Shown: one piece after another, positions 5,300 to 61,489 of the stretch
Layout: each line of letters starts with the position of its first letter
How positions within the stretch are numbered: position 1 is the first letter of the stretch
The notes under the pieces: model-generated
The model's input: the letters and a program-made list of their open reading frames with translations, nothing else
Told to the model about the DNA's origin: nothing
Database searches by the model: none
Position numbers and translations under genes: made by a program
Origin: Ranitomeya imitator
Taxonomy: Eukaryota
Length of the DNA stretch: 64,000 nucleotides
NCBI RefSeq assembly: GCF_032444005.1
Contig: NC_091287.1
Coordinates: 302,560,001-302,624,000 of the forward strand
Direction of reading: 5' to 3'

Positions 5300-6060
5300 G
5301 CACAAATCTAATACTTGCTAAATTTTTTCCACAATGGCCTTCTGGTATAACACCATTTTAGTAGATCTCTCTTCCTCAGGAAGGAGAGATGCAAGTTTTT
5401 CCTTGTAGCGTGGGTCTAGCAGGGTGAACAACCAGTGCTCCTTTTTGGCTAAGATGAAAATAACGTGAGGGTCACGGGAAAGACAGCGGTAGATAAAGTC
5501 GGCCATATGTGCCAAGCTCCCTACAGCCAACACTACCCTGTCTCCACCATGATAACGACTCTGAAACTCCTCCTGCTCCCTCTCTTCTTCCTCATTCCCC
5601 TACTCACCCCATCCACATAGAAGAGACAGGATGAAGCTTGTGTGGATACTTGCCTGTGTAGCAACCAGCTTCTGTTTCTCCTCTTCTTCGGCTTCCACCT
5701 CCTCATTGTTACCAAATCCATGCTGGACAGATGAGATGAGGCTGGGCTGGGTAGTATTTCCCTATCTCATGTATTCCTCCATCTTCTCCTAGTCCGCATG
5801 CAAAGCTTCATATTTAATTCTCAGCTGCAAATGTTTAAGTAGGCACAGGAGTGGGATAGTTGCGCTGATTATGGTGTCATTGCTGCTCACTATCTCCTCA
5901 AAGTCTTAGAGAGCCACGGAAATATCAGACATCCATGCCCACTCTTCAGTTGTTTTCTTTGGAGGCTGACCAGAATACTAACTGGGTCTCCTGGCTGTTC
6001 TGGGTCACCTGACGAAGACTACATGCCGAAACATGTGTTGGGATCTAGCCCCAGCACAGC
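5300..6060 (-). pseudogene. Second hAT transposase relic
   Basis: ORF 5318..5533 contains LLDPRYK; homologous to the 230-700 region. Confidence 0.8.
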
Positions 6061-7163
6061 AGGAGGAAATGACCACAGGTATTTATTAGTCTTTACTCAT
6101 GTTTGTTGAAATTTGTTTGCATCCACACCCTGCTATTTTATGATACATGCATGTCAGGCTGAGATCATCTTAGGGTATCTTTTTTAGCCCATTATTCATA
6201 TATTTGCCTGGTATGAAGCCCTGTGTACATTAATGCATATCCTCCATGCTGTTTTGTCGCCCTAGCTTGCTCACCTTGTTAAATGTATTTTAAACATATT
6301 ATAAATACTTTTCTTACTAAAGATTTATAATATTTTATTACTTTATGGCTATATAGTTTATTTAATGTCACCTGCATGGGCAAAGTGCCTTCACAGAAAA
6401 ATTCCACATACCCAGCCAGGACCTCCACTTTCATATCAAGTGATGGGGCACCCCAGATGAGTACCTCACCCACAGCTACCACCCCACGTCGCATTACACT
6501 TCAGTCAGCAATAGTTTTGCAGTTGGAAGAGCATCATTATGAGGGGAGGACTCGAGTTGCATGGAAAATGATAACCATTACAAGGCGCTGGACAAGAACT
6601 GTAAAAAGGTGGTGAGTGGCGCAGAACAGCCAGGAGGAGAAGCAAAAGTGCGGCTCTTCAGAGGCTACATCTACAGAAGGAAGTGTCAGAACCCAGGAGT
6701 GCCAGCGTGCAGCTGAGAGTTGCCATTGCTGCAAAGTGAAAAGATAAGGTCCACCCAGTAAGGTTGTGACCCAAGGAAATGGGCAAAAAAGATCAAGAAA
6801 CAGAATGGTGAGTCAGAGATAACCACACCTTGCGAAAGGCGAGCTTCATGAGATGAAAGAGATGGCACGATTTGTGGGTTGTGAGTTGATGAGAAAGGGG
6901 TGTGGCAGCAAGATGGCAAAGTGGGAAATGTTAATGGCACGGAGTGAGGCACATGCAAAAAGTGGGTGGCTTGGTTTAAGAGCCCAGAGGCCGAAAGCTC
7001 CTGCACCCAGCCCGCAGATGAACCCTAACCTGGGGTGCACACCTCTTACCACTCGGGCGAAGTGGATTGTGAAGGTGATCTGGGCCAAGAAAGAAAGGGA
7101 GCAGTGAGTCTGGGTCTAACTGGAAAGCCCGGGTGGAGAAAAGCTCGCCCAGCACATGACAAA

Positions 7164-18835: not shown

Positions 18836-19240
18836 CTCCATGTGTTTGATGAGTGGTGGCAGCATGTTATTTAGATGAGATGTGTGGACTTTGCCAGGGT
18901 GTGATTTATGCTCACTTTGCAGGCTATAACAGAAGTCGAGTGCAAGATTGAGTGAAAGTAGATATATTAAGGCTAGGTTCACATTAGCGTCTGTGTGTGC
19001 AGCGTATCATCTGCTTGCGCAAAGGAATGCCAAAACGCATACAAACGCATGCTTACGCAACGTTTATATCTGCATCATCTTACACATGATGGCAAAAAAC
19101 GCTGCGTGTGCATGCGTTTTTGCATGCGTTTGCGTTGTTTATGCCCATGCGTTTGATATTTCCATTGCTTTTACAGTAGCTTTTCCTTGACATCAGACAT
19201 CCAATAGGTGTGTCTCATGGGATTTCTATATATATATATA

Positions 19241-20879
19241 CAGTTAGGCCCATATATATTTGGACAGAGACAACATTTTTCTAATTTTGGTTATAGACAT
19301 TACCACAAAGAATTTTAAACACAGCAATTAAGATGCAGTTGAAGATCAGACTTTCAGCTTTCATTTGAGGGTATCCACATTAAAATTGGTTGAAGGGTTT
19401 AGGAGTTTCAGCTCCCTAACATGTGCCACCCTGTTTTTAAAGGGACCAAAAGTAATTGGACAGATTCAATAATTTTAAATAAAATGTTCATTTTTAGTAC
19501 TTGGTTGAAAACCCTTGGTTGGCAATGACTGCCTGAAGTCTTGAACTCATGGACATCACCAGACGCTGTGTTTCCTCCTTTTTGATGCTCTGCCAGGCCT
19601 TCACTGTGGTGGTTTTCAGTTGCTGTTTGTTTGTGGGCCTTTCTGTCTGAAGTTTAGTCTTTAACAAGTGAAATGCATGCTCAATTGGGTTGAGATCAGG
19701 TGACTGACTTGGCCATTTAAGAATATTCCACTTCTTTGCTTTAATAAACTCCTGGGTTGCTTTGGCTTTATGTTTTGGGTCATTGTCCATCTGTATGAAA
19801 TGAGACCGATCAGTTTTGCTGCATTTGGCCGGATCTGAGCACACAGTATGTCTCTGAATACCTCAGAATTCATTCGGCTGCTTCTGTCCTGTGTCGCATC
19901 ATCAATAAACACTAGTGACCCAGTGCCACTGGCAGCCATGCATGCCCAAGCCATCACACTGCCTCCGCCGTGTTTTACAGATGATGTGGTATGCTTTGGA
20001 GCTGTACCACGCCTTCACCATACTTTTCTCTTTCCATCATTCTGGTAGAGGTTGATCATGGTTTCATCTATCCAAAGAATGTTCTTCCAGAACTGTGCTG
20101 GCTTTTTTAGATGTTTTTTAGCAAAGTCCAGTCTTACCTTTTTATTCTTGATGATTATGAGTGGCTTGCACCGTGCAGTGAACCCTCTGTATTTACTTTC
20201 ATGCAGTCTTCTCTTTATGGTAGATTTGGATATTGTTACGCCTACCTCCTGGAGAGTGTTGCTCACTTGGTTGGCTGTTGTGAAGGGGATTTTCTTCACC
20301 ATGGAGATTATTCTGCGATCATCCACCACTGTTGTCTTCCGTGGGCGCCCAGGTCTTTTTGCATTGATGAGTTCACCAGTGCTTTCTTTCTTTCTTAGGA
20401 TGTACCAAACTGTAGATTTTGCCACTCCTAATATTGTAGCAATTTCTCGGATGGGTTTTTTTCTGTCTTCGCAGCGTAAGGATGGCTTGTTTCACCTGCA
20501 TGGAGAGCTCCTTTGACGGCATGTTTACTTCACAGCAAAACCTTCCAAATGCAAGAACCACACCTCAAATCAACTCCAGGCCTTTTATCTGCTTAATTGA
20601 GAAAGACGTAACAAAGGGATTGCTCACACCTGTCCATGAAATAGCCCTGGAGTCAATTGTCCAATTACTTTTGGTCCCTTTAAAAACAGGGTGGCACATG
20701 TTAGAGAGCTGAAACTTCTAAACCCTTCATCCAATTTTAATGTGGATACCCTCAAATGAAAGATGAAAGACTGAACTTCAACTGCATCTGAATTGTTTTG
20801 TTTAAAATTCATTGTGGTAATGTCGATAACCAAAATTAGAAAAATGTTGTCTCTGTCCAAATATATATGGCCCTAACTG
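19241..20879 (-). mobile_element. Full-length Tc1-like transposon, frameshifted transposase
   Basis: ~225-bp TIRs starting CAGTTAGG, flanked by (TA)n; ORF pieces with paired-like HTH, WIDET, QMDNDPKH, SPDLNPIEH. Confidence 0.93.
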
Positions 20880-21762
20880 TATATATATATATAGACACAT
20901 TGCACTGATGAAATTCTCATCTTTTGCTGCTGTATCGAGCTGCAAGATGAATCTTGACATGGACAGCTTCTATGATAATCTGGATTTACAGTTGAAATTG
21001 GCTTTTGCCTTTGCTGTGGCTTGTGAAGAAGAAATCAGAAGACAAAGATGGAGAAGACGTCATCGTCGCTATTGGCAACACTGCATCCTTGAACTCTGAG
21101 AGAGAGCCTTGGAGCCTACCACTTGTTGTACACAGAGCTGTGTAAAAACCCGGAGAGGTTTTTTGACTACACGAGGATGTCAGAACAGAGCTTCAAGTGT
21201 CCGAGGATCCATCACCAGGCAGGACACACAACTCCGTGGAGCAATTCCTTCTGAGGAACATCTTTTGTGACCATGAGGTATGTAATTTTGAAAAACAAAC
21301 AAGTCAATAGTATTATTGTTAGAAAAGCCATGTATTTTTTTTTCCATTTTATGTTTGGCAGATTCATGGCTACTGTAGAGACCTTATAATCTCTACATTT
21401 TCAATTCTGGATTGGAGTGTCCACCCTTTCTGGGATTGTTGGAGACACCTGCCGTGCTTTATATGACGTTCTGAGTCAAGAATTCCTCCCGCAACCCACA
21501 ACTGAACTCTGGCTGCAAAATGGAGCAAAATTTTAAAACATTTGTAATTTTCCTAACTGTGTGGGGGCCATGGGCGGCAAACACATTTGGATTATGAAAC
21601 CTGCTGGAAGTGGTACCGAGTATTTTAATTACAAAAAATACTTTTCGATTGTTCTCATGGTGATTACAGATGCTGAATGTCGATTTGTCGCTGTGGACGT
21701 TGGCTAATTGGATGAGAAAATGACTCTCAGACTTTCAAAAACACTGACATGGGCCAAAGTTT

Positions 21763-22347: not shown

Positions 22348-24243
22348 ATGGGCCAAAGTTTGTATGATAATAATTTCAATTTTCCACAGCCACGACCTAT
22401 TCCGAACACTGAAGTACTGCCAATGCCATTTGTTGTGGTTGGGGATGAGGCGTTTCAAATGTGTGCCAATGTGACGCCCAGGAGACCAGGGTACCCAGCA
22501 CCGGACCAATGGGGTCTCTCTCTTGAGGGAGATGTCACGGGTGGCTTGACCCGGTGCTGTGGCTTCAGGCAATGCACAGTGTAAGGGGTATCATGAGGGA
22601 ACAGGCACTTACTTGATCAGCAGCAGGTTCTCCCAGCAGTGATGATCCTGATCCTGGATAGATGGCTATTGTCCAAATGAAAGACTGAGGCACTGAAACA
22701 TTTAACCAGTTTACTTCAACATAAAGGGATTTACAACCAGTCCTGTCACCGGAGTCTGTATGGGAACTCTGAGTTACTTTGACCCTACCGGGGTCTTCGC
22801 CTCTTATTGTACGCAGTTTCTGTGTGGCCCTGCTGCTGTATGTGAACTGGCTGCCGGCCCAATCTGTCCCCTCCGGGTCCTGGTTCGACGGGCAACCCGA
22901 GTCCTTTTATCGACTTACCCCCTCCAGGAGTACCGCTGAACTCTGTGTCTGTTGCTGCGTCCGGCCCTAGTGAAGCTGATATCACCTCACGTTTTTCCAG
23001 TTGCTGTATTATATATAATGAATACAGCCACGGATCCGGTATCCGTCTTTGCGCCTGTTCTGGGTAGTGATTAATGCTACCCGGTTCTCACAATGTCCTT
23101 TTTCTCTGTCCCTTTTCTCCTCAGGCCGGTGATTTGGGCCTGGAAACTGTCATAGGGCTGTTAGAAATTCAGCTGTATGACCTCTCACTTTCAGCTCCTT
23201 AGCCCAACTGCCAGTTCTTCTCTCAGAATGGATCAAGGGGAGTCTCTGGAGCTCCCCCTTCTGGCCGGAGGTGGTAGTGCAGTCTTGCTATTTTAGTATT
23301 TGTATTTAGTGTCAGTAACTGTTTTTGTGGCAAATACCCCTAGGGGTGCCAATGTGGCACCCCTAGGGGTATTTGCCACAAAAATAGTTACTGACACTAA
23401 ATACAAATACTAAAATAGCAAGACTGCACTACCACCTCCGGCCAGAAGGGGGAGCTCCAGAGACTCCCCTTGATCCATTCTGGGCTGAGAAAAGAACTGG
23501 CAGTTGGGCTAAGGAGCTGAAAGTGAGAGGTCATACAGCTGAATTTCTAACAGCCCTATGATGGTTTCCAGGCCCAAATCACCGGCCTGAGGAGAAGAGG
23601 GATAGAGAAAAAGGACATGGTGAGAACCGGGTAGCATTAATCACTACCCAGAACAGGCGCAAAGACGGATACCGGATCCGTGGCTGTATTCATTATATAT
23701 AACACAGCAACCGGAAAAACGTGAGGTGATATCAGCTTCACTAGGGCCGGACGCAGCAACAGTCACAGAGTTCAGCGGTACTCCTGGAGGGGGTAAGCCG
23801 ATAAAAGGACTCGGGTTGCCCGTCGAACCAGGACCCGGAGGGGACAGATTGGGCCGGCAGCCAGTTCACATACAGCAGCAGGGCCATACAGAAACTGCGT
23901 ACAATAAGAGGCGAAGACCCCGGCAGGGTCAAAGTAACTCAGAGTTCCCATACAGACTCCGGTGACAGGACTGGTTGTAAATCCCTTTATGTTGAAGTAA
24001 ACTGGTTAAATGTTTCAGTGCCTCAGTCTTTCATTTGGACAATAGCCATCTATCCAGGATCGGGATCATCACCGCTGGGAGAACCTGCTGCTGATCAAGT
24101 AAGTGCCTGTTCCCTCACGATACCCCTTACACTGTGCATTGCCTGAGGCCACAGCACCGGGTCAAGCCACCCGTGACATACCCCTCAATAGACAGACCCC
24201 ATTGGTCCGGTGCTGGGTACCCCGGTCTCCTGGGCGTCACAAT

Positions 24244-24261
24244 TGGCGTCACGAACAGGAT
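24244..24261 (+). promoter_or_regulatory. Primer-binding site complementary to a tRNA-Ser(CGA) 3' end
   Basis: TGGCGTCACGAACAGGAT, 2 nt after the LTR; matches the vertebrate Ser-CGA acceptor/T-stem sequence as I recall it. Confidence 0.7.
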
Positions 24262-24712
24262 AGAGCCAGCCCATATACCGGGTATTGTGTGCCGTGATTG
24301 GAGCCCAAAACTTTGAAAACTTGGATGAAAAATCGTGAAAATTGACTTTATTAAAGAAAATTCCGTTCCCCATTGAAAACTATTGAAAGTGACTTTTCCC
24401 CATTGGTTATAATGGAGTAAAGATGGCCGCCATCCCCTGAGGTAATCACCTCATAACCGTTAGGCACGAGACTGTTAATTGGGCTACGCCATTACCTGAG
24501 CCCCAGTCTGATTGAAAAACTTCAGAATCCGCCATTACGGAGCGCGCGGCGGGTGGGAGCAGCAGGGGGCGTGTCATTGTGGGTGGCACCAAGCTGAGCC
24601 CTCTGACGTCAGAGCAAGGGGAAACCAATCCTGCTGCACAGCAGAACGAATCTACACTATCCCGACGGAAGCGGAGGACCGGAAGGGTCCGGATTAACTA
24701 AGGGGGCACAGT

Positions 24713-25753
24713 ATGTCGCAGCACGGAGACGTCGCAGCAACCGGCAACGCTAATGCAGCTGAAAGACAGAGTGTCAATAGAGAGTCCGGCAGCGCAGCGG
24801 TGCAAGGAGTGGCGCCCATCATGCCGGTGCTGATGCCATATACCCCGGGTGGCCCGTGGCTTCCAATGTATGAAGGTGTGCCTAATACCCTTGACAATTT
24901 CAGAGAAAAGATGCTGGCCCATTTTGACATGTTCCCCGTGGGTGAAGTTCAGCATGTTAGTCTCCTGATGATGCAGTTAAGTGGCCATGCTAATTGAGAA
25001 GTCACAGCATGGGCAGCTGATCTAAAAGGCACTGTTGAACGCATATTTGCTGGATTAAAAGCTACATTTGAAACCACTGCCAGCAGCAAAGCTAAAATAC
25101 GATTCTTTAATTGCAAACAAAAAGCTAATGAGGGCGTGAGAGACTTTGCCTTAAACCTGCAGGAAGCCCTTAAATCACTTACACTGGCTGAACCCATTTT
25201 TAACACCGGAGCGGATAAACTGCTAAGAGATCAATTTATTGAGGGACTCTACACCCCTTCTCACCGGGGGCATGTGAGCATGCTTGTTTTTAAGAACCCT
25301 GAATTGACATTTGCCCAATTAAAGGAGAGCGCTATACGTCTCCAGCTGGCAGAGGCACCTCGGGATCAGGATCCTGTGCAACCCATGGCAGAGGCACCTC
25401 AACAACAGGGAGTGCCAGTGACATCAGCTATGTCCGGGGCCATTGCTAAGCCCCTGGGGCCCAGTACTAATGAGGCTCTTCAACAAAAGCTTGACTCTTT
25501 AACTGATGTTGTTGCTTCAATGGCTAAAACCATGCAGGAGATGAGAGGACCCAAGATGGAGTTGGCAAACCGTAGAGAGGATGTTCCATGGATGAGACCC
25601 CGGAGATACCCGACATGGAGAGGACGACCCCGCGACCGCTACCAACCAGATGGACAGCCCATTTGTCGCCATTGCCAGCAGCCAGGCCACTTTGCACGAG
25701 ATTGTGATTTAAACGGGAATCCCCTGGGAATGCGGGCCGCTTCGCAGGAATGA
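24713..25753 (+). pseudogene. gag: Gypsy gag with one premature stop (TGA 24995-24997)
   Basis: ORFs 24713..24997 and 25136..25753 share a frame; CRHCQQPGHFARDC zinc knuckle; the outer copy has CGA at the stop position. Confidence 0.85.
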
Positions 25754-28700
25754 ACTTTCAAGGCCCAACACCCTGGCACGACAGGTACTTCGGAGAACGA
25801 CCCATTATCCCTATCGTGCTGGACGGATTTCCCCTCAACGCTTTGCTGGACACAGGTTCCCAGATTTCATCTATACCGTATATCCTTTATAAGAGGTACT
25901 GGGCTGATGCAGATATTGATAAAGGGCCCTCTGATGTTGAACTAGATATATGGGCTAGTAATGGTAAGTTGGTACCGAAACTAGGATTCAGGGAGATGAC
26001 CAGAAAGATTGGTAAAGTAGAATTGAAGAAACAGGGTATAATTGTTGTTGATGTTGACCGGCGGAACTATGAACCAACTGTATTGATAGGAATGAATGTG
26101 TTAGAGAACTGCTTTTCCGAAGTTATTTCTGTCTTACAGCAAATTGCTGAAACTGCCCAATCCTGCCAGCAGAGAGTTCTCCAAAGGGAAATAAATGTAT
26201 TGATGTTAAGGCAACAGGTAGAAGTTGCAGGTGGAGAAATCGGCAGTGTGAGGGTAAGTGATCCAACGTCTATTGTAATCCCACCAAAAACAGAAATGCT
26301 GGTATGGTGTAGAGCAGCCATTGGTACTAAGGGACGAGATTATCAAGCCTTAATAGAACCAGTGTACACCGACAGCAGGCCCACTATACTCACAGCACGA
26401 GGGGTAGTCGAGGTACACCGGGGACGAGTGCCGGTACGACTTTTGAACTGTGGAGAGGAAGAGGTCACTTTGCCAAGGTATGCTACAGTGGCAAAGCTAT
26501 ATACTGTTGACAACAATGCCATCACAACCATTGAGCCCTTAGAACCAACCTGTCAGGTGGAAGGCAACGGCTCAGACGGAGGATTGGAGGATTGGTGCCA
26601 ACAGCTACACGTGGGCATAAGTTCAACACCTACCCATCAAAAACAAGGGGTGTATAGGCTAGTGACGGAATATGAACAAGTCTTCAGTAAACACCCATTG
26701 GACTTCGGACGGATAGAAGGGGTAGAACACACAATCCCCACCGGTGACCATCCCCCAATAAAAGAAAGATATAGACCCATACCGCCCGCTCACTATCAAT
26801 GTGCAAAAGATATGCTGAGGGAGATGAAACAGGCCGGGGTAATAAGAGACAGCTGTAGCCCCTGGGCGGCCCCTCTAGTGATTGTCAAAAAAAAGGACGG
26901 AACCATGAGAATGTGCGTAGACTACCGGCGGATTAATAACATCACCCATAAAGACGCCTACCCCTTGCCTAGGATAGAAGAGTCCTTGACTGCTTTGAAA
27001 TCTGCTAATTATTTTTCCACCTTAGACTTAACAAGTGGGTATTGGCAAGTCCCTGTGGCTGAGAGAGATAAGGAAAAGACGGCATTCACCACACCAATGG
27101 GTCTATGTGAATTTAATCGCATGCCATTCGGACTCTGCAACGCATCCGGTACCTTCCAGCGGCTGATGGAATGCTGCCTCGGACACAAGAACTTCGAGAC
27201 CGTCCTCCTGTACCTAGATGATGTGATCGTCTACTCAAAGACTTACGAACAACACTTAAAAGACCTGGCAGAAGTGTTCGAAGCCTTATCCAGGTATGGC
27301 ATGAAAATCAAGCCATCCAAATGTCACCTTCTCAAGCCAAAGGTACAGTACCTGGGTCACATCGTGAGTTCGGAGGGAGTAGCACCGGATCCCGAGAAAA
27401 TAAGCGCCATAAGGGATTGGCCAAGACCTACCAACGCAAAAGAAGTGAGGCAATTCCTGGGATTGGTGGGTTACTATCGCAGATTTATAAAAGGATTTAC
27501 CAAGTTGGCAGCACCCTTGCAAGACGCCTTGGTAGGGCAGACGAAGAAACCTTCAAACCGAAACCCTCCTTTTCAGTGGAACAATGAAAGGGAAGACTCC
27601 TTTGAACAACTAAAGAAGGCACTAGCCCGAGAAGAGGTTCTGGCATACCCAGATTACCATCAACCTTTCATCCTCTACACCGATGCCAGTAATGTGGGAC
27701 TAGGAGCGGTGCTGTCACAAAAGCAAGAAGGTCGGGAGAAAGTCATCGCCTTTGCAAGTAGAAAGCTCCGGCCTACTGAAAGAAATTCAGAAAATTACAG
27801 CTCCTTCAAATTGGAACTACTGGCAGTAGTTTGGGCTGTGACTGAACGTTTCAAACACTATCTGGCCGCTGCAGAATTTATTGTCTATACTGACAACAAT
27901 CCGTTGACCCACCTGGACACAGCCAAATTAGGTGCGTTAGAACAGCGATGGATAGCCCGGTTATCTAATTACAACTTCATAATCAAGTATCGAGCAGGTC
28001 GCAAGAATGGAAATGCCGATGCCCTATCCCGGATGCCACACTTGAGAGATGTAGAAGAAGAAACGGGGGAGCTTGAAGAAATTGAACTACCAGCCTTCCA
28101 TCATCCCAAGGCAAAACATCATCAGTCAAGTACCTATCAGAAACAACAAGAGGTGAATTTTAATCCGTTAGCACACCATAGATGGGCTGACACCCAAGAC
28201 AGCAATCCGGCTGTGAAGTTGGTGAAGGAACTGCTGACTGAGCAAAGTGCATATCCCGATGAGGATGCCCCAGAAGAGACGCGTCAACTCTGGAAAGAGA
28301 GAGGCAAAATGTTCCTGTATCAAGGGAAGCTCTGTAGAAGGTACACCAATCCGAAAACACATGAATTGGTTTGGCAGATTATAGTGCCTAAACAAGATGT
28401 GAAGATGGTCCTCGAAGCTTACCATAATGGTGCTGGTCACTTCGGTTGGAAAAAGTTAGAAGTACTTGTAAGAGAAAGATTTTATTGGGTCGGGATGAGA
28501 AAATCAATCGAACAGTGGTGCAGAAACTGTGGCCCGTGCAACCTCAGAAGAAACGATCAAAAGAACCAAAGAGCACCACTGCAGCCCATAATCACCAAAC
28601 AACCACTTGAACTTGTAGCCATAGACCACGTGAAGTTGACACCAAGCCGGTCCGGCTATGTCTATGCCTTGACCATCGTGGACCATTATTCACGCTTCTT

Positions 28701-29661
28701 GGTAGTAGTACCCGTAAAAGATCTGACAGCAAAAACAGCAGCCAAAGCGTTCCAAACATACTTTTGTAGACCCCATGGATATCCGGAACAGGTTCTCACC
28801 GACCAAGGTACAGCCTTTGAATCAGAGATCTTCAGAGAATTCTGTAATATGTATGGTGGCAAAAAGATCCGGCCGACGGCCTATCATCCACAAACAAACG
28901 GCTTATGCGAGAAGATGAACCATATTGTAATAGAACTACTAAAGACTTTACCTGAGACAGAAAGGAATCAATGGCCAGATAAATTGCCTGACTTGGTGGA
29001 TCTGTATAATCATGTCCCGGTGAGCTCCACCAATTGCACCCCAGCTTACCTTATGCGTGCAAGACCCGGCCAATTACCAATTGATCTAGAAATGGGAATT
29101 CTGAAACCAGACGCAGAAGTCCAAGACTCCAATTGGGATATCATACGGCAAAAGCAGTATCGCCAAGTGCAAGAGAGTGTGGAAAGAAGCCTTCAGCAAA
29201 CCAGAGAAAGACAAGAGCGAACTTTCAACCAGAATGCTCTAGAGACCCCATTAAGACCGGGTGACCAAGTGCTCAAGAGAAATCGTCGAACCAATAAACT
29301 AGACAATCAGTGGGAAGCCGTACCCTACACAGTTTTACCAACAAGAATGGACAATCCTAAAATGTGTCTCATTAGCAAAAACGGGGGCTTAACATCTGTA
29401 CTAGTGTCAAGAGACAATCTTAAATTATGTCCGGAAGCATTGAAAGAGCCTGAAGTTGTCCAGCCAGAACCAGAAGTTATTCAACCCATTCACAATGGAC
29501 TTGCCAACTCCATAGTCGTGGAATTATCTTTAGCAGAGCGGGCAGATACTACATCCGCAGTAGACAGTAGTACACCACATGAAGAGACACCGCTATTACG
29601 TAGGTCACAGCGTAGTACCCAGGGTCAATTACCGGCCAGGTATGCGGATTACCAACTATAA
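25750..29661 (+). CDS. pol: Gypsy pol polyprotein PR-RT-RNaseH-IN, open (1303 aa)
   Basis: LLDTGS; YLDD; TDAS/ELLAV/TDNNPL; HHCC, AIDH, TDQG, GLCEKMN; overlaps the gag stop (ATGA). Confidence 0.95.
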   Translation: MNFQGPTPWHDRYFGERPIIPIVLDGFPLNALLDTGSQISSIPYILYKRYWADADIDKGPSDVELDIWASNGKLVPKLGFREMTRKIGKVELKKQGIIVVDVDRRNYEPTVLIGMNVLENCFSEVISVLQQIAETAQSCQQRVLQREINVLMLRQQVEVAGGEIGSVRVSDPTSIVIPPKTEMLVWCRAAIGTKGRDYQALIEPVYTDSRPTILTARGVVEVHRGRVPVRLLNCGEEEVTLPRYATVAKLYTVDNNAITTIEPLEPTCQVEGNGSDGGLEDWCQQLHVGISSTPTHQKQGVYRLVTEYEQVFSKHPLDFGRIEGVEHTIPTGDHPPIKERYRPIPPAHYQCAKDMLREMKQAGVIRDSCSPWAAPLVIVKKKDGTMRMCVDYRRINNITHKDAYPLPRIEESLTALKSANYFSTLDLTSGYWQVPVAERDKEKTAFTTPMGLCEFNRMPFGLCNASGTFQRLMECCLGHKNFETVLLYLDDVIVYSKTYEQHLKDLAEVFEALSRYGMKIKPSKCHLLKPKVQYLGHIVSSEGVAPDPEKISAIRDWPRPTNAKEVRQFLGLVGYYRRFIKGFTKLAAPLQDALVGQTKKPSNRNPPFQWNNEREDSFEQLKKALAREEVLAYPDYHQPFILYTDASNVGLGAVLSQKQEGREKVIAFASRKLRPTERNSENYSSFKLELLAVVWAVTERFKHYLAAAEFIVYTDNNPLTHLDTAKLGALEQRWIARLSNYNFIIKYRAGRKNGNADALSRMPHLRDVEEETGELEEIELPAFHHPKAKHHQSSTYQKQQEVNFNPLAHHRWADTQDSNPAVKLVKELLTEQSAYPDEDAPEETRQLWKERGKMFLYQGKLCRRYTNPKTHELVWQIIVPKQDVKMVLEAYHNGAGHFGWKKLEVLVRERFYWVGMRKSIEQWCRNCGPCNLRRNDQKNQRAPLQPIITKQPLELVAIDHVKLTPSRSGYVYALTIVDHYSRFLVVVPVKDLTAKTAAKAFQTYFCRPHGYPEQVLTDQGTAFESEIFREFCNMYGGKKIRPTAYHPQTNGLCEKMNHIVIELLKTLPETERNQWPDKLPDLVDLYNHVPVSSTNCTPAYLMRARPGQLPIDLEMGILKPDAEVQDSNWDIIRQKQYRQVQESVERSLQQTRERQERTFNQNALETPLRPGDQVLKRNRRTNKLDNQWEAVPYTVLPTRMDNPKMCLISKNGGLTSVLVSRDNLKLCPEALKEPEVVQPEPEVIQPIHNGLANSIVVELSLAERADTTSAVDSSTPHEETPLLRRSQRSTQGQLPARYADYQL

Positions 29662-30950
29662 AACTATAGCCATTGTTATCATTCTGCAACGTATAAGCCC
29701 AGTACCTACAGAGACTTGTCTGTATGAACTTCTTGCATATTCTTGAACTTTTTATCAGCCCGGAGGCACTAAATCAAAGCTCCGGAAAGACTGCTTTTTG
29801 AACTTTGCTTTTTGCTCTTTTTGAACTTTCTTTAGACTTTATATTGATAACTCCGTTGGAAAAATGGAACTAAATTCCTGGACACAAAGTGCAGTGCCTT
29901 TCCTAGTACCTTCAAGGATAGAACTGTATTAACGGACGCTATTTGAAGTGACTTTTTACAGAACTCTATTTTTGTTTCCTTGAGTGGTTTTTGTAACTTT
30001 TCATTTTTAAGACTCTGTACATATTGTTATTTCAACATGTTATCGTCCCACAGTCCCGGAGTACTGTTCTTAACTAAGGGGGAATGTGGCACCCCTAGGG
30101 GTATTTGCCACAAAAATAGTTACTGACACTAAATACAAATACTAAAATAGCAAGACTGCACTACCACCTCCGGCCAGAAGGGGGAGCTCCAGAGACTCCC
30201 CTTGATCCATTCTGGTCTGAGAAAAGAACTGGCAGTTGGGCTAAGGAGCTGAAAGTGAGAGGTCATACAGCTGAATTTCTAACAGCCCTATGATGGTTTC
30301 CAGGCCCAAATCACTGAGGAGAAGAGGGATAGAGAAAAAGGGCATGGTGAGAACCGGGTAGCATTAATCACTACCCAGAACAGGCGCAAAGACGGATACC
30401 GGATCCGTGGCTGTATTCATTATATATAACACAGCAACCGGAAAAACGTGAGGTGATATCAGCTTCACTAGGGCCGGACGCAGCAACAGTCACAGAGTTC
30501 AGCGGTACTCCTGGAGGGGGTAAGCCGATAAAAGGACTCGGGTTGCCTGTCGAACCAGGACCCGGAGGGGACAGATTGGGCCGGCAGCCAGTTCACATAC
30601 AGCAGCAGGGCCATACGAGGCGAAGACCCCGGCAGGGTCAAAGTAACTCAGAGTTCCCATACAGACTCCGGTGACAGGACTGGTTGTAAATCCCTTTATG
30701 TTGAAGTAAACTGGTTAAATGTTTCAGTGCCTCAGTCTTTCATTTGGACAATAGCCATCTATCCAGGATCGGGATCATCACCGCTGGGAGAACCTGCTGC
30801 TGATCAAGTAAGTGCCTGTTCCCTCACGATACCCCTTACACTGTGCATTGCCTGAGGCCACAGCACCGGGTCAAGCCACCCGTGACATACCCCTCAATAG
30901 ACAGACCCCATTGGTCCGGTGCTGGGTACCCCGGTCTCCTGGGCGTCACA

Positions 30951-32628
30951 CTTGGCAAAGTGACCTCTTCCTCTCCACAGTTCAAAAGTCGTACCGGCAC
31001 TCGTCCCCGGTGTACCTCGACTACCCCTCGTGCTGTGAGTATAGTGGGCCTGCTGTTGGTGTACATTGGTTCTATTAAGGCTTGATAATCTCGTCCCTTA
31101 GTACCAATGGCTGCTCTACACCATACCAGAATTTCTGTTTTTGGTGGGATTACAATAGATGTTGGATCACTTACCCTCACACTGCCGATTTCTCCACCTG
31201 CAACTTCTACCTGTTGCCTTAACATCAATACTTTTATTTCCCTCCGGAGAACTCTCTGCTGGTAGGATTGGGCAGTTTCAGCAATTTGCTGTAAGACAGA
31301 AATAACTTCGGCAAAGCAGTTCTCTAACACATTCATTCCTATCAATACAGTTGGTTCACAGTTCCGCCGGTCAACATCAACAACAATTATACCCTGTTTC
31401 TTCAATTCTACTTTACCAATCTTTATGGTCATCTCCCTGAATCCTAGTTTCGGTACCAACTTACCATTACTGGCCCATATATCTAGTTCAATATCAGAGG
31501 GCCCTTTATCAATATCTGCATCAGCCCAGTACCTCTTATAAAGGATATACGGTATAGATGAAATCTGGGAACCTGTGTCCAGCAAAGCGTTGAGGGGAAT
31601 TCCGTCCAGCACGATAGGGATAATGGGTCGTCCTCCGATGTACCTGTCGTGCCAGGGTGTTGGGCCTTGAAAGTTCATTCCTGTGAAGCGGCCCGCATTC
31701 CCAGGGGATTCCTGTTTAAATCACAATCTCGTGCAAAGTGGCCTGGCTGCTGGCAACGGCATCAAATGGGCTGTCCATCCGGTTGGTAGCGGTCGCGGGG
31801 TCGTCCTCTCCATGTCGGGTATTTCCGGGGTCTCATCCATGGAACATCCTCTCTATGGTTTGCCAACTCCATCTTGGGTCCTCTCATCTCCTGCACGGTT
31901 TTAGCCATTGAAGCAACAACATCAGTTAAAGAGTCAAGCTTTTGTTGAAGAGCCTCATTAGTACTGGGCCCCAGGGGCTTAGCAATGGCCCCGGACATAG
32001 CTGATGTCACTTGCACTCCCTGTTGTCGAGGTGCCTCTGCCATGGGTTGCACAGGATCCTGATCCCGAGGTGCCTCTGCCAGCTGGAGACGTATAGCGCT
32101 CTCCTTTAATTGGGCAAATGTCAATTCAGGGTTCTTAAAAACAAGCATACTCACATGCCCCCGGTGAGAAGGGGTGTAGAGTCCCTCAATAAATTGATCT
32201 CTTAGCAGTTTATCCGCTCCGGTGTTAAAAATGGGTTCAGCCAGTGTAAGTGATTTAAGGGCTTCCTGCAGGTTTAAGGCAAAGTCTCTCATGCCCTCGT
32301 TAGCTTTTTGTTTGCAATTAAAGAATCGTACTTTAGCTTTGCTGCCGGCAGTGGTTTCAAATGTAGCTTTTAATCCAGCAAATATGCGTTCAACAGTGCC
32401 TTTTAGATCAGCTGCCCATGTTGTGACTTCTCGCTTAGCATGGCCACTTAACTGCATCATCAGGAGACTAACACGCTGAACTTCACCCATGGGGAACATG
32501 TCAAAATGGGCCAGCATCTTTTCTCTGAAATCGTCAAGGGTATTAGGCTCACCTTCATACATTGGAAGCCACGGGCCACCCGGGGTATATGGCATCAGCA
32601 CCGGCATGATGGGCGCCACTCCTTGCAC
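30951..32628 (-). pseudogene. Outer-copy gag (start deleted, stop at the zinc knuckle) and first ~240 aa of pol
   Basis: ORFs 31762..32628 and 30836..31678 are near-identical to inner gag/pol; pol is cut at EEVTLP by the inner LTR. Confidence 0.9.
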
Positions 32629-34262
32629 CGCTGGTTTTCCCCTTGCTCTGACGTCAGAGCGCTCAGCTTGGTGCCGCCCACAATGACACGCCCCCTGCTG
32701 CTCCCGCCCGCCACGCGCTCTGTAATGGCGGATTCTGAAGTTTTTCAGTCAGACTGGGGCTCAGGTAATGGCGTAGCTCAATTAACAGTCTCGTGCCTAA
32801 CGGTTATGAGGTGATGGCGGCCATCTTTACTCCATTATAACCAATGGGGAAAAGTCACTTTCAATAGTTTTTAATGGGAAATGGAATTTTCTTTAATAAA
32901 GTAAATTTTCAAGATTTTTCATCCAAGTTTTCACAGTTTTGGGCTCCAATCACGGCACACAATACCCGGTATATGGGCTGGCTGAATCCTGTTCGTGACA
33001 CCAATTGTGACGCCCAGGAGACCGGGGTACCCAGCACCGGACCAATGGGGTCTGTCTCTTGAGGGAGATGTCACGGGTGGCTTGACCCGGTGCTGTGGCC
33101 TCAGACAATGCACAGTGTAAGGGGTATCATGAGGGAACAGGCACTTACTTTATCAGCAGCAGGTTCTCCCAGCGGTGATGATCCTGATCCTGGATAGATA
33201 GCTATTGTCCAAATGAAAGTCTGAGGCACTGAAACGTTTAACCAGTTTACTTCAACATAAAGGGATTTACAACCAGTCCTGTCACCGGAGTCTGTATGGG
33301 AACTCTGAGTTACTTTGACCCTGCCGGGGTCTTCGCCTCTTATTGTACGCAGTTTCTGTGTGGCCCTGCTGCTGTATGTGAACTGGCTGCCGGCCCAATC
33401 TGTCCCCTCCGGGTCCTGGTTCGACGGGCAACCCGAGTCCTTTTATTGGCTTACCCCCTCCAGCAGTACCGCTGAACTCTGTGTCTGTTGCTGCGTCTGG
33501 CCCTAGTGAAGCTGATATCACCTCACGTTTTTCCGGTTGCTGTATTATATATAATGAATACAGCCACGGATCCAGTATCCATCTTTGCGCCTGTTCTGGG
33601 TAGTGATTAATGCTACCCGGTTCTCACAATGTCCTTTTTCTCTGTCCCTTTTCTCCTCAGGCCGGTGATTTGGGCCTGGAAACTGTCATAGGGCTGTTAG
33701 AAATTCAGCTGTATGACCTCTCACTTTCAGCTCCTTAGCCCAACTGCCAGTTCTTCTCTCAGACCAGAATAGATCAAGGGGAGTCTCTGGAGCTCCCCCT
33801 TCTGGCCGGAGGTGGTAGTGCAGTCTTGCTATTTTAGTATTTGTATTTAGTGTCAGTAACTGTTTTTGTGGCAAATACCCCTAGGGGTCCCACACCAACC
33901 TCATAAAACTATACTCAAGTTGGGACTTGAATCACACCAAACAGATTTACAACTACCGACTGATAAGGGCATGAAGAACCTTAGAGTGTGCATTTGGATT
34001 GCTGGTATCTAAATGGTGCATTTTGGGAACAGCCATCAATCTAGTAATTGAGACAACTGATGAGGTTGTGAAAGCGTGTGTTGTTATGCACATCCTGGCA
34101 AAAGAGAGACCCAACTTAGAACCTGAGGAACCTGTTACATTGCAGGATTACCAAGACCACCCTCTGAGGACTACAGTGGAAGCTGCCCAGATGAGGTATA
34201 ACTTTGCTGCTTACTTTGTTTCTGATAATGTACGTGTGGCATGGCAAAGCGTAATGGTTTAA

Positions 34263-35643: not shown

Positions 35644-36291
35644 TATATACTACATAAGAAAAATGGAGAAAGGTCCAAAGATAACAAAATAACAACTTTA
35701 TTAAATATTAACAACAATAGTGTACAAAATACAAAATTTACACGACTAGGATCGGGAAAAGGAGGGCAAGGGTCCCGACCAATAAGATGTAATAAACGGC
35801 CGCACCTTGACAAAGAAGGCGAAACGCGCGTCGGTGGCGGCGGGGAGCATCGGTCCCGACCTGGCATTAGCATGGGTAAGCAGATTGGGTAGTGTATGAA
35901 CCAGGCTGTAGGTTGTAGGTAGTGCGCACTACATTATACAAAGGATTTAATTAGTCATTGGACTTTATACTGATTTACTACCCTGGGTTCCTCTATCTAT
36001 TGATGGCACTTAGCCTGCTTTCTTTTTCCCATGTTGGCCGTTTATTACATCTTATTGGTCGGGACCCTTGCCCTCCTTTTCCCGATCCTAGTCGTGTAAA
36101 TTTTGTATTTTGTACACTATTGTTGTTAATATTTAATAAAGTTGTTATTTTGTTATCTTTGGACCTTTCTCCATTTTTCTTATGTAGTATATATTTGGAT
36201 AAGGAGAGTCCTGCTGGTGCACGGACATGAGTACGGCAATTTGTCCTGATAGCACCGTTTCACTGATGGTACCTTATATGGTTTATGTTTA
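35644..36291 (+). mobile_element. Penelope-derived foldback insertion
   Basis: Identical 158-bp inverted arms (35644-35801 / 36036-36193); hammerhead motif at 35803-35836; possible TSD AATATTATTAT. Confidence 0.7.
35803..35836 (+). ncRNA. Minimal hammerhead motif, U3-A8 variant
   Basis: cacc-TTGACAA-a-g(aagg)c-GAAA-cgcgcg-TC-ggtg; stem I pairs, stem III is palindromic, stem II is only 1 bp. Confidence 0.55.
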
Positions 36292-39200
36292 AATATTATT
36301 ATTATTATTATTTATTTATATAGCACCATTGATTCCATGATGCTGTACATGAGAAGGGGTTACATACAAATTACAGATATCACAGTAAGCAAACTAACAA
36401 TTGCAGACTGATACAGAGGGGTGAGGATCCTGCCATTGCGGGCTTGCAATCTACAGGATGGTGGGGAAGGAGACAGTAGGTCCAGGGTTGCAGGAGCTCC
36501 GGTGTTGGTGAGGCGGTGGCTCCGGTAGTGGTGAGGAGGCAGCGGGGTCAGTGCAGGTTGTAGGCTTTCCTGAAGAGTTGGGTTTTCAGGTACCGTCTGA
36601 AGGATCCGAATGTAATTGATAGTCGGACGTGTTGGGACAAAGAATTCCAGAGGATGGGGGATATTCTGGAGAAGTCTTGGAGGCGGTTGGGTGAGAAGCG
36701 AATAACTGTGGAGGAGAGAAGGTGGTCTTGGGAGGACCGGAGATTACATGAGGGAAGATATCGGGAGATTCGTTCAGAGATATATGGAGGAGACAGGTTA
36801 TGGATGGCTTTGTAGGTCAGTATTAGTAATTTGAACTGGATACACTGAGGGAATGGGAGCCAGTAAAAAGATTTACAGAGGGGAAAAGCAGAGGAGTAGT
36901 GAGGAGAGAGATGAATTAGTCGAGCAGTAGAGTTAAGGATGGACTGGAGAGATGCAAGGGTGTTAACAAGGAGGCCACAGAAAAGGATTTTGCAGCAGTC
37001 ATGTGAAGAAACAAATTATGAAAGATTCTCCATTTTGTGCTAGATTCTCCATTTTGTGCTTTGACTCAATTTTCTTGCTGGTCAAAGATAAATTCTGTTA
37101 TTTAATTAGGTAGAAGGTTACAGCTGCCATGAAGTAATTTTATCTTGTTTTTCACAAGCCTGTTATTCAACTAGGCTATGGTTCATAATTGGTATAAAGA
37201 CCTTGAGTGTTCTAACTCGAGCCGAGCCAGATAAGAGACTCGGGGGTGTATCGCTATACAAGACTGAGGCATCTGTTAATATGTTTTTTATGCCAAAAAG
37301 ACATGACCATATCCGTAGTTTCCATTTTTCCTGTATCCTCATGGGTTAAGTTTTTCCTGCATTCTTATAGGTTAAGAACTGTGAGCGTATTCTTATGCTG
37401 ATTGGGTGAAGTATAATTTCTATGACTATGAAAACTCATACACAATAAACGGGGGCCCAGAGATCTGCTCGATCCCCCATACAGAGACATGAGTCTTCGT
37501 CTGGTCATTTTCAGTTGCCGGCAACGCTCTGTAGATTAATTTGGAAATCACTGAGTCAACCGCGAAGGATCAATTTAGATCCTCCCTCAACAGCTTGGTG
37601 ACCCGAAACGTGGGGCCCCAAACAGGAACGCCTCTGCCCCCCGGAGGACAACAAGAGAAAGGACCTTTGGACCGGACACAGGCACTGGAAAATTGGGACT
37701 GATCATCCCCCACAACAACCACGGTAAGTTGGCAGTTATACTGTCCAGACTGACCATTTGGTGTGGTTTTCCTGTGTTTGTGCTGCAAAGAGGATCTGAG
37801 GTTTGTCCCCGATGGTGGGGTGATTCTTGGGTGGAATCATATAGAGGTGTAGTTCCGTTAGAAGCCCAGTGCTCGAACCGTACCTCATAAGGGACGGACA
37901 CCCCGGATTGACCAGTGATGTAATTCTCTTTATAGTCAAAATATCCTGAATTCCTGATCATTGTTAGAATCAGGCACGGTGAGGTGATCGAAGATTGGGT
38001 AGGATACGTAACTCAGGAATATATAGAAGTATACAGTATATATATCCAGAGGTGTCTGGAGGGAAGTCTAAGACGCCCTCCTCCTTTCACTGAGTACCGC
38101 GTTTTTGGGTTGTCCCAGCAGGGGACAGGTAGACCCAGTGGAATAGACTATCCGGCCGCTCTAGTACTATGCACGACAAAGTAAGGATATTTAGCTCTAA
38201 AGGAGAATCATGTTTCCATGGAAGTAAGAGAAGACTTTGAATTTGTGTGATGAATCCCCAAAGATGGGGAAAATATTCTCAATCATTGGTTTTTCTAAGG
38301 TGTTCTGGCATGTGAATTGTGTGATGAAGGTTTTGTAGAAATTAATTAAGTCTGAGAACTGCTGTATTCCATTTCTGTGTGAAATTTTTAAGATACCCGA
38401 TGGGAGGGGTAGGTCAAACAGCTGCGCTGTTGCTTTCTTCTTTCTGTGTTGAGGAATGCTGTAAATTCTTATCTCTGTGTCTCTGGTATGGAGGGGGCAC
38501 GAAGCTGCGTCCTCTCTGAATTTTATGTCCTTGATGTAGAGCGCGGGGAGATCTGTGTTTTGTTTAATAAAACAATATTGTATTGAATTAGAAGGAAATA
38601 TTGTAAGTTTAAAGTAAAAAATAGCGCCTAGTTTTAGAAGGAAACTTGTAAGAGATTGTTTGGTTATCAGTGTAATTGAAAGATTGGTAAAAGATTCATC
38701 TGCTTCAAGTTCAGTGGTTGATATATGGCAAATTAAGGATTAACAGAGGAAGTGAATTCTGATTTGTTTTTGTTACATTGAAAAAGAAAAGCTGTCTATT
38801 ACTATGACAAAAAACTGGATGTTTGTGGTGCAAGAAGGAACTGAGAAAGTGACTGAGATCAATGTGTTGGGAAAGCAAACAATTAAAAATTTGGGACAGG
38901 GGGGCTCCCTGCTAGATAATATGGTCCCTCCCCAGGAAATTAAGCCTCTACTCCTGACTGTAAGCCCTATGCCCCTTAACCCCAAGGCACCAATATATCC
39001 TGGACTGTCGAGAAGTTCTATGGGCGTCTTATGGTAGTATTTAAAAATCTGGGGTTTTCACTGTATAATAAAGCCCATTCACACCTTTTTGTGGCAGCTT
39101 TGATGTCCGGCCTTAAATCTGAATTGAAAGAGGCAATAATGTCAGTGAGACCCGATATTGAGACTTCCATTCTGGACAATGCATTGAAAAAAAGTAGTAC

Positions 39201-40021
39201 AAAGTTTTCAGAAGAACTTAACCCACTCTACATCAGCAGAGAAATTAAAGGTTAAATCAGTAGCCGCAGCGATTTCTGCTCCAATCTCAGCCCTCCCCCC
39301 CCACAGTTACAAGGACGCAGCTGGTTCCTTATCAGTGGTCCAGACTCCAGCTCCAGCCCTCCTGCCTTACACAAATCCAGTCCCATACTCCAATATCCCT
39401 TTTTAACCCTATGTCTGGGAATCTCCCTCGCCAGGTTAATTCTCAGATCAAGAGCTTGTTTTAATTAGAGTAGATGGCAGACCCAATAAATATACTCTCA
39501 CAAAACCCATCCCTGTGGGACCATTCCCTGAAGTTACTGCTCAGTTCGTAATCTCTCCCTCATGTCCGGTAAATTTACTGGGGGCAGATTTATTATCACA
39601 GTTCGGCACCAGAATATAATTCCAAGATGATGGTCAGATGGTATTTACGTTATATAACCCCTATGCAGATGAACATAATGAGATGTGTATCTTACATGCC
39701 CTTCTCACGGTTATGATGGCCCTGATAGGCCCAGATCCACCCCCAATAATGCCTGTAGAACCAGTAAAAGTGTTTCTCAAATCTGGTGCCCCTATTACTA
39801 AGTCCATCAGTACCCTTTGAAACATGATCAGGAGCGGGACCTCAAGGGTCAAATACAAACGTTACTCGATAATGGTACTGTGTTTCCCCATGTAACACGC
39901 CTTTGTTTCCCGTTAAAAAAAAGACCCCACCCGGCCAACCCCCTGTGTACCGGCTGGTACAAGATCTATGGGCAGTTAATGCAGCTACTGTTCTAGAATC
40001 TCCGGTGCCTAATCCACATAG

Positions 40022-41002
40022 TGTTAGGGCTAGCGGAACGCACCAAATAATAAGACAGATAGAGTATGGTGCGTTCGCAGCCCGGGGTCCACCATGCAGA
40101 GATGGAACCGGCTGCCAAGTAATGACGGACTATATGGCGGTACTCATAAGTATACACACGTGGGTTAAACTCCACCCAGCGTGAAGGAAGCGATCCTGTT
40201 GCGTCACAGGATCGCGGTACCGCACATAGAGGGCGAGCAAGTAGTCAGCGAACTCAACCCCAACTAGGATTGAAGTCCGATTAGACCCTTGCTGGCACAA
40301 CACCGCAACTGGGTGTGAAAGGAAGCTTAATAACAATATTAGGGCACAAGAGTGCATGCGGTGCCGCACTGACGAACGCCACTAACCACCCAGGCTTGGG
40401 TAAGGAAAGCACAGAGGAAGTGCACGGCGCCGTACTGGCGGTCACAGCAACTGGACGCTGTAATGTGTGATTAGTGCTGTAGGCTAAGTCGGGCGCTAGA
40501 TAGCAACCATACACCTTCCGCGAACAGGCATTCAATAGGGAAGGGGTATCCAAGGACGACTTGCACTCACAACAAACACACGTAAGCAAATGTACACTAG
40601 CGCATGGCCGTGCGGTCATGCGCAGTTTATATAGTTGCAGCACAGGAAGTGGCCACAGAAACTTTGCCCTTCCAAGACCTGCCAAGAGGACCAATGGAAT
40701 GTGCTGCAGAGCCTGAGCACATGACCCTCGATCTCCAACGGGAGATCTTGCCCTGGGCATGCTCAGTTTGTGCAGACAAGGACTTAGTCCCAGAGAAGTC
40801 CGCTCGCTGCTGACCAGCACTGGCTTTAATGGCAGAAGCTGAAGAAGCAGCAGTAACTCTCTGTACAGAGTGAGACTGAGCAAGACGCTGGGACCGACGT
40901 CCCTGCTGAGCAGACTCCACTGCGGCTGGATAAGAATGGGAGACCGCAGCGGAGATGGCTCGAGATTCCCCCTGCGCAGAAGTGGGAACTCGAGACCTAA
41001 CA
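40022..41002. mobile_element. Gypsy-type solo LTR (981 bp) in ERV RT
   Basis: TGTTAGG...CCTAACA; TSD CATA(G/C); removal restores P-N-P-H-T-L-L-S-Q-I; TATA-like motif on the minus strand near 40630. Confidence 0.85.
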
Positions 41003-41062
41003 CATACTCTCTTGTCTCAGATATCTCAGGATGCTGCTTGGTTCACAGTTATCGACCTCGCC

Positions 41063-61163: not shown

Positions 61164-61489
61164 TATCTCTGGTCATTAAGGGGTTAATATACAGTACAGA
61201 CCAAAAGTTTGGACACACCTCTTTTAAAGATTTTTCTGTATTTTCATGACTATGAAAATTGTAAATTCACACTGAAGGCATCAAAACTATGAATTAACAC
61301 ATGTGGAATTATGTACTCCATAACTGGGCTGCAAATTTGGGGCTCTTGAGCCCGCTCTTCTATGATTGTCTGCATTGAACTACTACTCACACCAAGAATT
61401 TAGTCACAAGCTTCAACTCGACTGCAGCGGCATGTATGAAGAAGTTTATTCTCAGACTGTATTCTTCTATTATGCAAAATAATAACAGT

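What the first reader, a model, noticed from the sequence alone, without database searches (positions are those of the whole stretch)
22470..24241. Two Gypsy LTRs fused U3-to-U3 into a ~1.77-kb spacer-less palindrome
The junction reads ...ggggtgcca-a|tgtggcacccc. The outer element's 3' LTR abuts the inner element's 5' LTR with only 1 bp lost. About 3.6 kb of the outer element (equivalent to 26478-30084), including its PPT and the expected CTTG TSD, is missing. Both deletion ends fall at the LTR edges, as if the loop of an LTR-LTR stem-loop was excised precisely. The arms carry different diagnostic variants (outer-type versus inner-type), so this is not a simple read foldback. Precise loop loss creating a long palindrome is the opposite of the usual fate of inverted repeats.
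Basis: partly seen in the sequence, partly recalled or inferred. Interest (0 to 1): 0.7.

Follow-up and report, generated by a model that had tools for sequence, protein, structure and literature searches.

The report
End-joined Gypsy LTRs forming a palindrome
Two copies of a jumping gene sit nose to nose as a 1.77-kb mirror repeat, likely because the loose end of a newly made DNA copy was joined by host repair to the end of a neighbouring copy, one of seven end-to-end joints found for this element in the genome.

Summary
The proposed precise loop excision is possible but not the best reading. Exact-pattern searches of the genome (at least 6,917 LTR starts) found seven LTR-edge joints: two U3-U3 (this one and a second with the same layout), three U5-U5 and two direct U5-U3, against none in two mid-LTR control windows. 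Direct joints cannot come from stem-loops, and four of the six other joints keep bases found only on free cDNA ends (AT, AA, PBS copy). The odd junction 'A' fits the family's cDNA overhang, also kept in 7 of 35 ordinary insertions. B's other end is a clean integrase joint on a favoured target. Most likely B went in by one end and host end-joining fused its U3 end to A's U3 edge, as in aberrant retroviral integration. Read support is lacking: the public contigs tested lack this allele. The scan noted a related head-to-tail dimer in another genome.

The parts
22466..22469 (+). Left TSD of outer element A (CCAA)
   Evidence: matches 33895-33898; related copies of the flank read through without the insertion (loose ends)
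22470..23351 (-). A3: 3' LTR of outer element A, U5 end at the TSD, first 2 nt of U3 and a 5-bp internal piece missing; left arm of the palindrome
23350..23353 (.). U3-U3 junction; the A at 23352 (or AA at 23351-52) matches the dinucleotide that precedes the U3 end of this family's cDNA
   Evidence: origin inferred
23353..24241 (+). B5: complete 5' LTR of inner element B; right arm of the palindrome
23353..23380 (+). Terminal U3 hairpin present in every LTR of the family (7-bp outer stem)
   Evidence: -7.6 kcal/mol, z -2.1; the U5 end has no such fold
24244..24261 (+). Primer-binding site of B, after the AT dinucleotide
   Evidence: cognate tRNA not tested
24242..30084 (+). Interior of B: gag interrupted by a stop; PR-RT-RH-IN frame open for 1,317 codons; deletions of 217, 55 and 4 bp near the 3' end; PPT 30076-82 then AA
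30085..30950 (+). B3: 3' LTR of B, clean CA end; 3 substitutions and two deletions (5, 18 bp) against B5
30951..30954 (+). The single surviving CTTG of B's target site, which fits the family's target preference
30951..33005 (-). Surviving 5' interior of A (positions 1-2235 of a full-length copy, about 180 bp deleted)
33006..33894 (-). A5: 5' LTR of A
33895..33898 (+). Right TSD of A (CCAA); the host site is a repeated, decayed transposase-like sequence
   Evidence: weak Plant_tran hit below cut-off; Harbinger identity is recalled, not tested

Best explanation
The palindrome is a nested, inverted pair of Ty3/Gypsy copies whose spacer was likely lost at the moment the inner copy went in: integrase likely joined B's U5 end at CTTG, and host end-joining likely fused B's free U3 cDNA end to the U3 edge of A's 3' LTR. 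Shown: the layout, both TSD states, the clean U5 end on a favoured target, the family's AA/AT cDNA ends and six other LTR-edge joints. Inferred: one-ended insertion and the order of events. B's side of the joint is exact because it is the end of a linear cDNA. A's side is exact either because B's free end paired with the 97% identical A3 nearby and the unmatched tail was trimmed at the edge, or because the PPT/U3 boundary of A was itself a free end or nick (an LTR-only piece or an unsealed plus strand if A and B arose in one burst).
For: (1) The cDNA ends are AA-TG...CA-AT: a joint CACA-AT-AA-TGTGG exists in the genome and a second keeps AT; the window's joint reads ...GGTGCC-AA-TGTGG with no untemplated base. 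(2) Seven LTR-edge joints: U3-U3 2, U5-U5 3, direct U5-U3 2; mid-LTR controls 0 and 0 (anchors present in 68-70 of 70 LTRs). Four of the six others keep AT, AA or a PBS copy; five have matching outer TSDs, one of them between two U3 ends and one with an extra A. (3) In four joints (window, L044, L043, L073) the TSD-bearing terminal LTR has lost its PPT and is joined at its U3 edge; two of these are direct, where no stem-loop exists. (4) At the second U3-U3 locus the inner copy lost 20 and 26 bp at its two ends, and the first 400 bp of the left arm are of the inner copy's subfamily, as expected of repair synthesis. (5) B's U5 site scores 1.9 bits: above 96.5% of sampled interior positions and above 12 of 33 true sites. 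(6) The lost loop belonged to an unfavourable stem. (7) One-ended insertion with host joining and flanking deletion is described for HIV and ASLV (PMC5041404, Discussion read).
Against: The junction A does not separate the models cleanly: 7 of 35 ordinary insertions also keep A or AA at the U3 side, so a normal insertion followed by later loss could give the same letters. A's edge-exact break needs an extra, untested step. The HIV/ASLV model expects short homology at the host-made joint, yet 12-nt and 7-nt direct matches at the edge were not used. Only two U3-U3 cases exist, and inverted nested pairs that kept their spacer could not be counted. Timing is unresolved: B's LTRs differ at 3 sites against 19 for A, but the interiors carry equal neutral loads (7.5 and 7.3 per kb). 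No read spans the joint.
Confidence: 0.55

Rival explanations
1. One reading: B inserted normally with CTTG on both sides; later A3 and B5 paired as a stem in single-stranded DNA, the loop was cut and trimmed to the stem base, and the ends were rejoined.
For: Explains both edges by one geometry; B's near-identical LTRs suggest a later arrival; B's U5 end is a normal integrase joint; widely spaced, diverged inverted repeats do pair in single-stranded DNA and have their tails trimmed (PMC10164571, abstract); a kept flap A is common (7 of 35).
Against: In that yeast system all 12 sequenced products were terminal deletions with inverted duplications, not loop loss (section 22). Stems with shorter loops or longer arms were available and two survive. 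It cannot make the two direct joints or the U5-U5 joints with PBS copies, and the second U3-U3 locus lacks a normal integrase end.
Confidence: 0.25
2. The present joint is secondary: a break at the U3 hairpin or palindrome centre was repaired by recopying B5 from B3, which homogenised B's LTRs and brought in the AA that precedes B3.
For: B5 and B3 share 7-8 variants absent from sampled copies, and one 30-mer carrying two of them occurs nowhere else in the assembly; 3 LTR differences against about 15 expected from the interior load, P about 2e-4; B's private changes are neutral-like, 10 silent to 25 altering.
Against: A late copy of a long-resident parent missing from this assembly explains the same data; two of 30 ordinary copies also have 4 or more shared private sites; A's edge is still unexplained.
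Confidence: 0.1
3. Library or assembly artefact that dropped the spacer.
For: No listed contig of four runs spans the joint; long inverted repeats are hard to sequence (own knowledge).
Against: The arms differ at 23 sites and belong to different elements; an overlap collapse would have used the 12-nt direct match, and did not; a second locus has the same layout with a different joint; runs X1 and X2 also lack an A3-private allele, so they do not hold this allele; no second copy of B exists in the assembly.
Confidence: 0.07
4. Double insertion: one copy landed at A3's edge and another at CTTG, and recombination between them removed the spacer.
For: The joint can be read as target CCAC with the last base replaced by a flap A; inverted LTR tandems by double insertion are reported in Drosophila (PMC5932611, passage).
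Against: The edge site scores -1.8 at best, matched by only 3 of 33 true sites; B5 and B3 share private variants, so they are not two independent copies.
Confidence: 0.03

Closest known systems
Aberrant one-ended integration of HIV-1 and ASLV (PMC5041404; passages and Discussion read)
   Same: One end a normal integrase joint, the other made by host enzymes, with deletion of flanking DNA; the aberrant end may join further viral DNA in either orientation.
   Different: Natural, inherited and in a Gypsy element; the host-made joint lands on the U3 edge of a homologous neighbour, gives a 1.77-kb palindrome and uses no longer microhomology.
2-LTR circle junctions and end-joined cDNA multimers (own knowledge; Ty1 multimeric arrays seen only as a reference title)
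   Same: LTR-to-LTR joints that keep the unprocessed terminal dinucleotides, seen here at L043 and L073.
   Different: The window's joint is U3-to-U3, between LTRs of two different elements, inside one TSD.
Capture of retrotransposon cDNA at double-strand breaks by end-joining (PMC11724301; passages read)
   Same: cDNA pieces, sometimes several, patched into a break.
   Different: Here the insert is a whole element and one of its ends looks integrase-made.
Inverted LTR-retrotransposon tandems in Drosophila (PMC5932611; passages read)
   Same: Two copies of one family in head-to-head or tail-to-tail contact.
   Different: Those keep a target motif in the junction (double insertion); here one copy is nested in the other and 3.9 kb is lost.
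Fold-back of spaced inverted repeats in single-stranded DNA (PMC10164571; abstract and section 22 read)
   Same: Distant diverged repeats pair and unmatched tails are trimmed at the repeat edge.
   Different: Its products are dicentrics and inverted duplications; here the flanks and outer TSD are intact and nothing is duplicated.

Membership tests
Ty3/Gypsy LTR retrotransposon | pol order PR-RT-RH-IN | tested here: met
   protease 35-134, RT 393-553, RNase H 624-755, integrase 893-1052
Ty3/Gypsy LTR retrotransposon | TG...CA LTRs, PBS, PPT, short TSD | tested here: met
   889-bp LTRs, 4-bp TSD in 23 of 35 exactly
Ty3/Gypsy LTR retrotransposon | clade placement by RT tree | not tested
   no tree built
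Aberrant one-ended integration | one end a normal CA joint on an integrase-type target | tested here: met
Aberrant one-ended integration | TSD replaced by deletion, duplication or inversion of the flank | tested here: met
   CTTG on one side only; 3,891 bp lost
Aberrant one-ended integration | other end host-joined, usually with short homology or truncation | tested here: inconclusive
   at most 1 nt shared; the end is not truncated; longer matches unused
Aberrant one-ended integration | deletion simultaneous with insertion (no spacer-bearing intermediate) | not testable with these tools
   needs population long reads; runs laid do not hold the allele
Stem-loop (inverted repeat) spacer loss | both breakpoints at the stem base | tested here: met
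   within 2-3 nt on A3, 0 on B5
Stem-loop (inverted repeat) spacer loss | edge joints confined to inverted pairs | tested here: not met
   2 of 7 edge joints are direct
Stem-loop (inverted repeat) spacer loss | the most favourable stem loses its loop | tested here: not met
   assuming A was full length
Double insertion (inverted tandem) | target motif preserved in the junction | tested here: not met
   neither CTTG nor a good target site at the joint

The most novel reading that the evidence does not exclude
In this Gypsy family the PPT/U3 boundary of the 3' LTR is a recurrent free end: one integration complex can pair the U3 end of one cDNA with the U5 end of an LTR-only piece, and the gap is patched with other cDNAs in either orientation. 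Composite insertions with a normal TSD, including kilobase near-perfect palindromes and an insertion bounded by two U3 ends, are then born ready-made, and the integrase overhang is often ligated rather than trimmed (10 of 35 TSDs).
Probability: 0.3. Interest if true: 0.62.

Novelty: new variant of a known kind. Interest (0 to 1): 0.42.

Why it matters
It gives a natural, inherited record of aberrant integration and cDNA end-joining, known mostly from drug- or mutant-induced retroviral infections and yeast break assays, and shows a route by which an active retrotransposon family creates long palindromes (candidate fragile sites) instead of losing them. The family has thousands of young copies, so the rate (7 edge joints per at least 6,917 LTR starts) and the kept-overhang TSDs can be measured. 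It also warns that LTR-pair dating and strict TSD matching misjudge such loci. The single locus has no shown function.

Tried and rejected
Read support: contigs of X1, X2, X11, X23 and X1, X2, X19, X20 show no listed piece across the joint, but X1 and X2 also lack the A3-private allele at 22638 (and X1 the one at 22564), and the tool lists only a few pieces and filters records, so this says nothing either way. Arm-to-arm gene conversion in the window: one B-private allele (LTR site 659) is in A3, but it is a CpG change and A3's neighbouring haplotype occurs in another copy: not shown. Single inversion between any two inverted LTRs: worked through on the map; every product still holds a U3-U3 joint. 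Head-to-head cDNA dimer inserted by two U5 ends: the outer ends are U5 and U3 of one element. Foldback of one read: arms differ at 23 sites. LTR-pair dating: unreliable here, many differences sit at family polymorphisms. One search's 'gag' column was partly in the wrong frame and was redone; A's load was inflated by a misaligned deletion and was redone. Literature: searches found no paper on nested inverted LTR copies fused U3-to-U3 or on overhang bases kept in TSDs; the library lacks most subscription journals and no supplements were read, so this is not proof of novelty.

Full report
Observation. Self-comparison of the window shows four copies of an 889-bp LTR: A3 22470-23351 (-), B5 23353-24241 (+), B3 30085-30950 (+) and A5 33006-33894 (-). 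A3 and A5 are bounded by CCAA on both outer sides; B5 and B3 enclose a PBS, a gag with a stop, a 1,317-codon PR-RT-RH-IN frame and a PPT. After B3 come CTTG and the first 2,235 positions of A's interior, reversed. Positions 2236-6126 of a full-length copy (3,891 bp), with A's PPT and the second CTTG, are missing. A3 and B5 differ at 23 of 882 sites and 15 sites split A-type from B-type LTRs. The finding is therefore real in the assembly and exactly placed.

The family. An exact 32-nt U3 motif occurs 6,917 times in the 5.96-Gb assembly. I fetched 40 stretches chosen from the first 100 listed hits (30 two-LTR elements, 10 single LTRs). Every 3' LTR follows GGGGG-AA and nearly every 5' LTR is followed by AT and the PBS, so the linear cDNA should end AA-TG...CA-AT (established retroviral biology). 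Of 35 insertions with both flanks in hand (5 single LTRs dropped for want of a partner), 23 have a perfect 4-bp TSD, 7 have A or AA in place of the TSD bases next to U3, 3 have A next to U5, and 2 differ otherwise. I infer that the 5' overhang is often ligated instead of trimmed. The window's joint GGTGCC-AA-TGTGG thus needs no lost or untemplated base: it is A3 minus 2-3 nt plus B's own overhang.

Census of LTR-to-LTR joints. Exact patterns with gaps up to 60 nt found two U3-U3 joints, the window and L044; three U5-U5 joints, L055-L057 (none in the narrower); and two direct U5-U3 joints, L043 and L073. Two mid-LTR control windows gave none; 5 against 0 has P = 0.03. Counts are lower bounds. 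L043 keeps AT and AA in full; L073 keeps AT and joins a whole element (LTRs 2 sites apart) to a foreign LTR (24 sites apart) inside one TSD with an extra A. L055 and L057 contain an LTR with a PPT before and a PBS start after it, a cDNA form; L057 is a string of LTR and interior fragments with TTAG outside two U3 ends; L056 is an element scrambled internally inside TSD CATA. The right end of L055 was not found within 40 kb. L044 repeats the window's layout inside TSD TAAG: spacer lost 340 bp, A3 lost 4 nt, B5 20 nt and B3 26 nt, the left arm has a 309-bp duplication and its first 400 bp are of B's subfamily (1 difference from that subfamily, 10 from A5). Its two partners carry similar loads, 1.6 and 1.3 private changes per kb.

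Mechanism. B's U5 end stops cleanly at CA on a site that fits the family's target preference (1.9 bits; above 96.5% of sampled interior positions and 12 of 33 true sites), so integrase probably made that joint. The U3 joint lacks CTTG, lies on a poor target (-1.8 at best) and ignores 12-nt and 7-nt direct matches, so it looks like near-blunt end-joining. One integrase end, one host end and a flanking deletion is the pattern described for HIV and ASLV, where the free 3' end copies nearby host or viral DNA before it is joined (PMC5041404). The B side is then exact by nature. For the A side I infer pairing of B's free end with A3 and trimming at the edge, or a free end at A's PPT/U3 boundary; the latter would also explain L044, L043 and L073, where the TSD-bearing last LTR has likewise lost its PPT and is joined at U3. 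A 28-nt hairpin at the U3 terminus may help to fix breaks or trimming there; this is untested.

Against, and open. Later loop loss explains both edges at once and can give the same letters, since 7 of 35 normal insertions keep the A. But the A3/B5 stem (889-bp arms, 3.9-kb loop) competed with a 4.8-kb stem with a 3.1-kb loop, and two other stems with 2.1-kb and 4.5-kb loops survive; in yeast such pairing gave inverted duplications in 12 of 12 clones (PMC10164571). Timing is unsettled: A's LTRs differ at 19 sites and B's at 3, yet the interiors carry 7.3 and 7.5 private changes per kb, and B's are neutral-like (10 silent, 25 altering; P = 0.007 against shared polymorphisms). B's LTRs share private variants found nowhere else in the assembly. 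Either B is a late copy of a resident parent missing here, or A and B are of one age and B's LTRs were homogenised. Conversion between the window's arms is not shown. The public contigs tested neither support nor contradict the joint.

Comparison and verdict. The element is a Ty3/Gypsy retrotransposon by domain order and ends. The locus works like an aberrant one-ended integration or cDNA capture; membership is met for the normal end and the deletion, inconclusive for the host-made end and untestable for simultaneity. Inverted LTR tandems (PMC5932611) and cDNA capture at breaks (PMC11724301) are known; nine searches found no report of this nested U3-U3 form or of overhang bases in TSDs. Verdict: real in the assembly, recurrent, a new variant of a known kind; interest 0.42.

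Noticed in passing
L003-L041 (35 insertions on C1): 10 of 35 TSDs are imperfect in one way only: the base(s) next to the LTR read A or AA (7 at U3, 3 at U5), matching the cDNA overhang; target preference about (A/T)TG-NWWN-CA(A/T).
   Followed up: partly
L044-L049 (G000:C6, about 364.63 Mb): Second U3-U3 palindrome with the same nested layout, TSD TAAG, chewed ends and a 309-bp duplication in the left arm.
   Followed up: yes
L057, L067-L068 (G000:C6, about 280.99 Mb): Insertion of about 4.6 kb made of LTR and interior fragments in both orientations, with TSD TTAG outside two U3 ends; central arms identical over 881 bp.
   Followed up: partly
L043/L051 (C2) and L055/L060 (C1): The same inversion joint (PBS to interior position 4883, 9-nt match) occurs at two loci, suggesting a recurrent fold-back during reverse transcription.
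   Followed up: partly
L056, L063-L064 (G000:C3, about 598.65 Mb): Young element reduced to about 2.9 kb of rearranged pieces joined at short matches, TSD CATA intact.
   Followed up: partly
L073, L075-L076 (G000:C3, about 263.41 Mb): Whole element joined through its unprocessed AT to a foreign LTR, inside one TSD.
   Followed up: partly
L003, L017: Elements with a perfect TSD whose two LTRs differ at 33 and 28 sites, half of them family polymorphisms: LTR-pair dates are unreliable in this family.
   Followed up: partly
window 54968-60236: Element with 1.5-kb and 0.5-kb inverted arms round a 352-codon frame with a GIY-YIG hit; Penelope-like by recall.
   Followed up: partly
window 41062-46823 and 37001-50481: A young chromodomain-bearing Gypsy element (783-bp LTRs, 99.5% alike, 1,383-codon frame) nested inside another direct-repeat pair (593 bp, 98% alike).
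   Followed up: partly
window 2112-2518, 3611-4077, 19225-20895, 35644-36193, 61476-61763, 63508-63688: Several MITE-like fold-back elements with arms of 90-240 bp.
   Followed up: no
window 62539-63688: Minisatellite arrays with 34-bp and 21/39-bp units.
   Followed up: no
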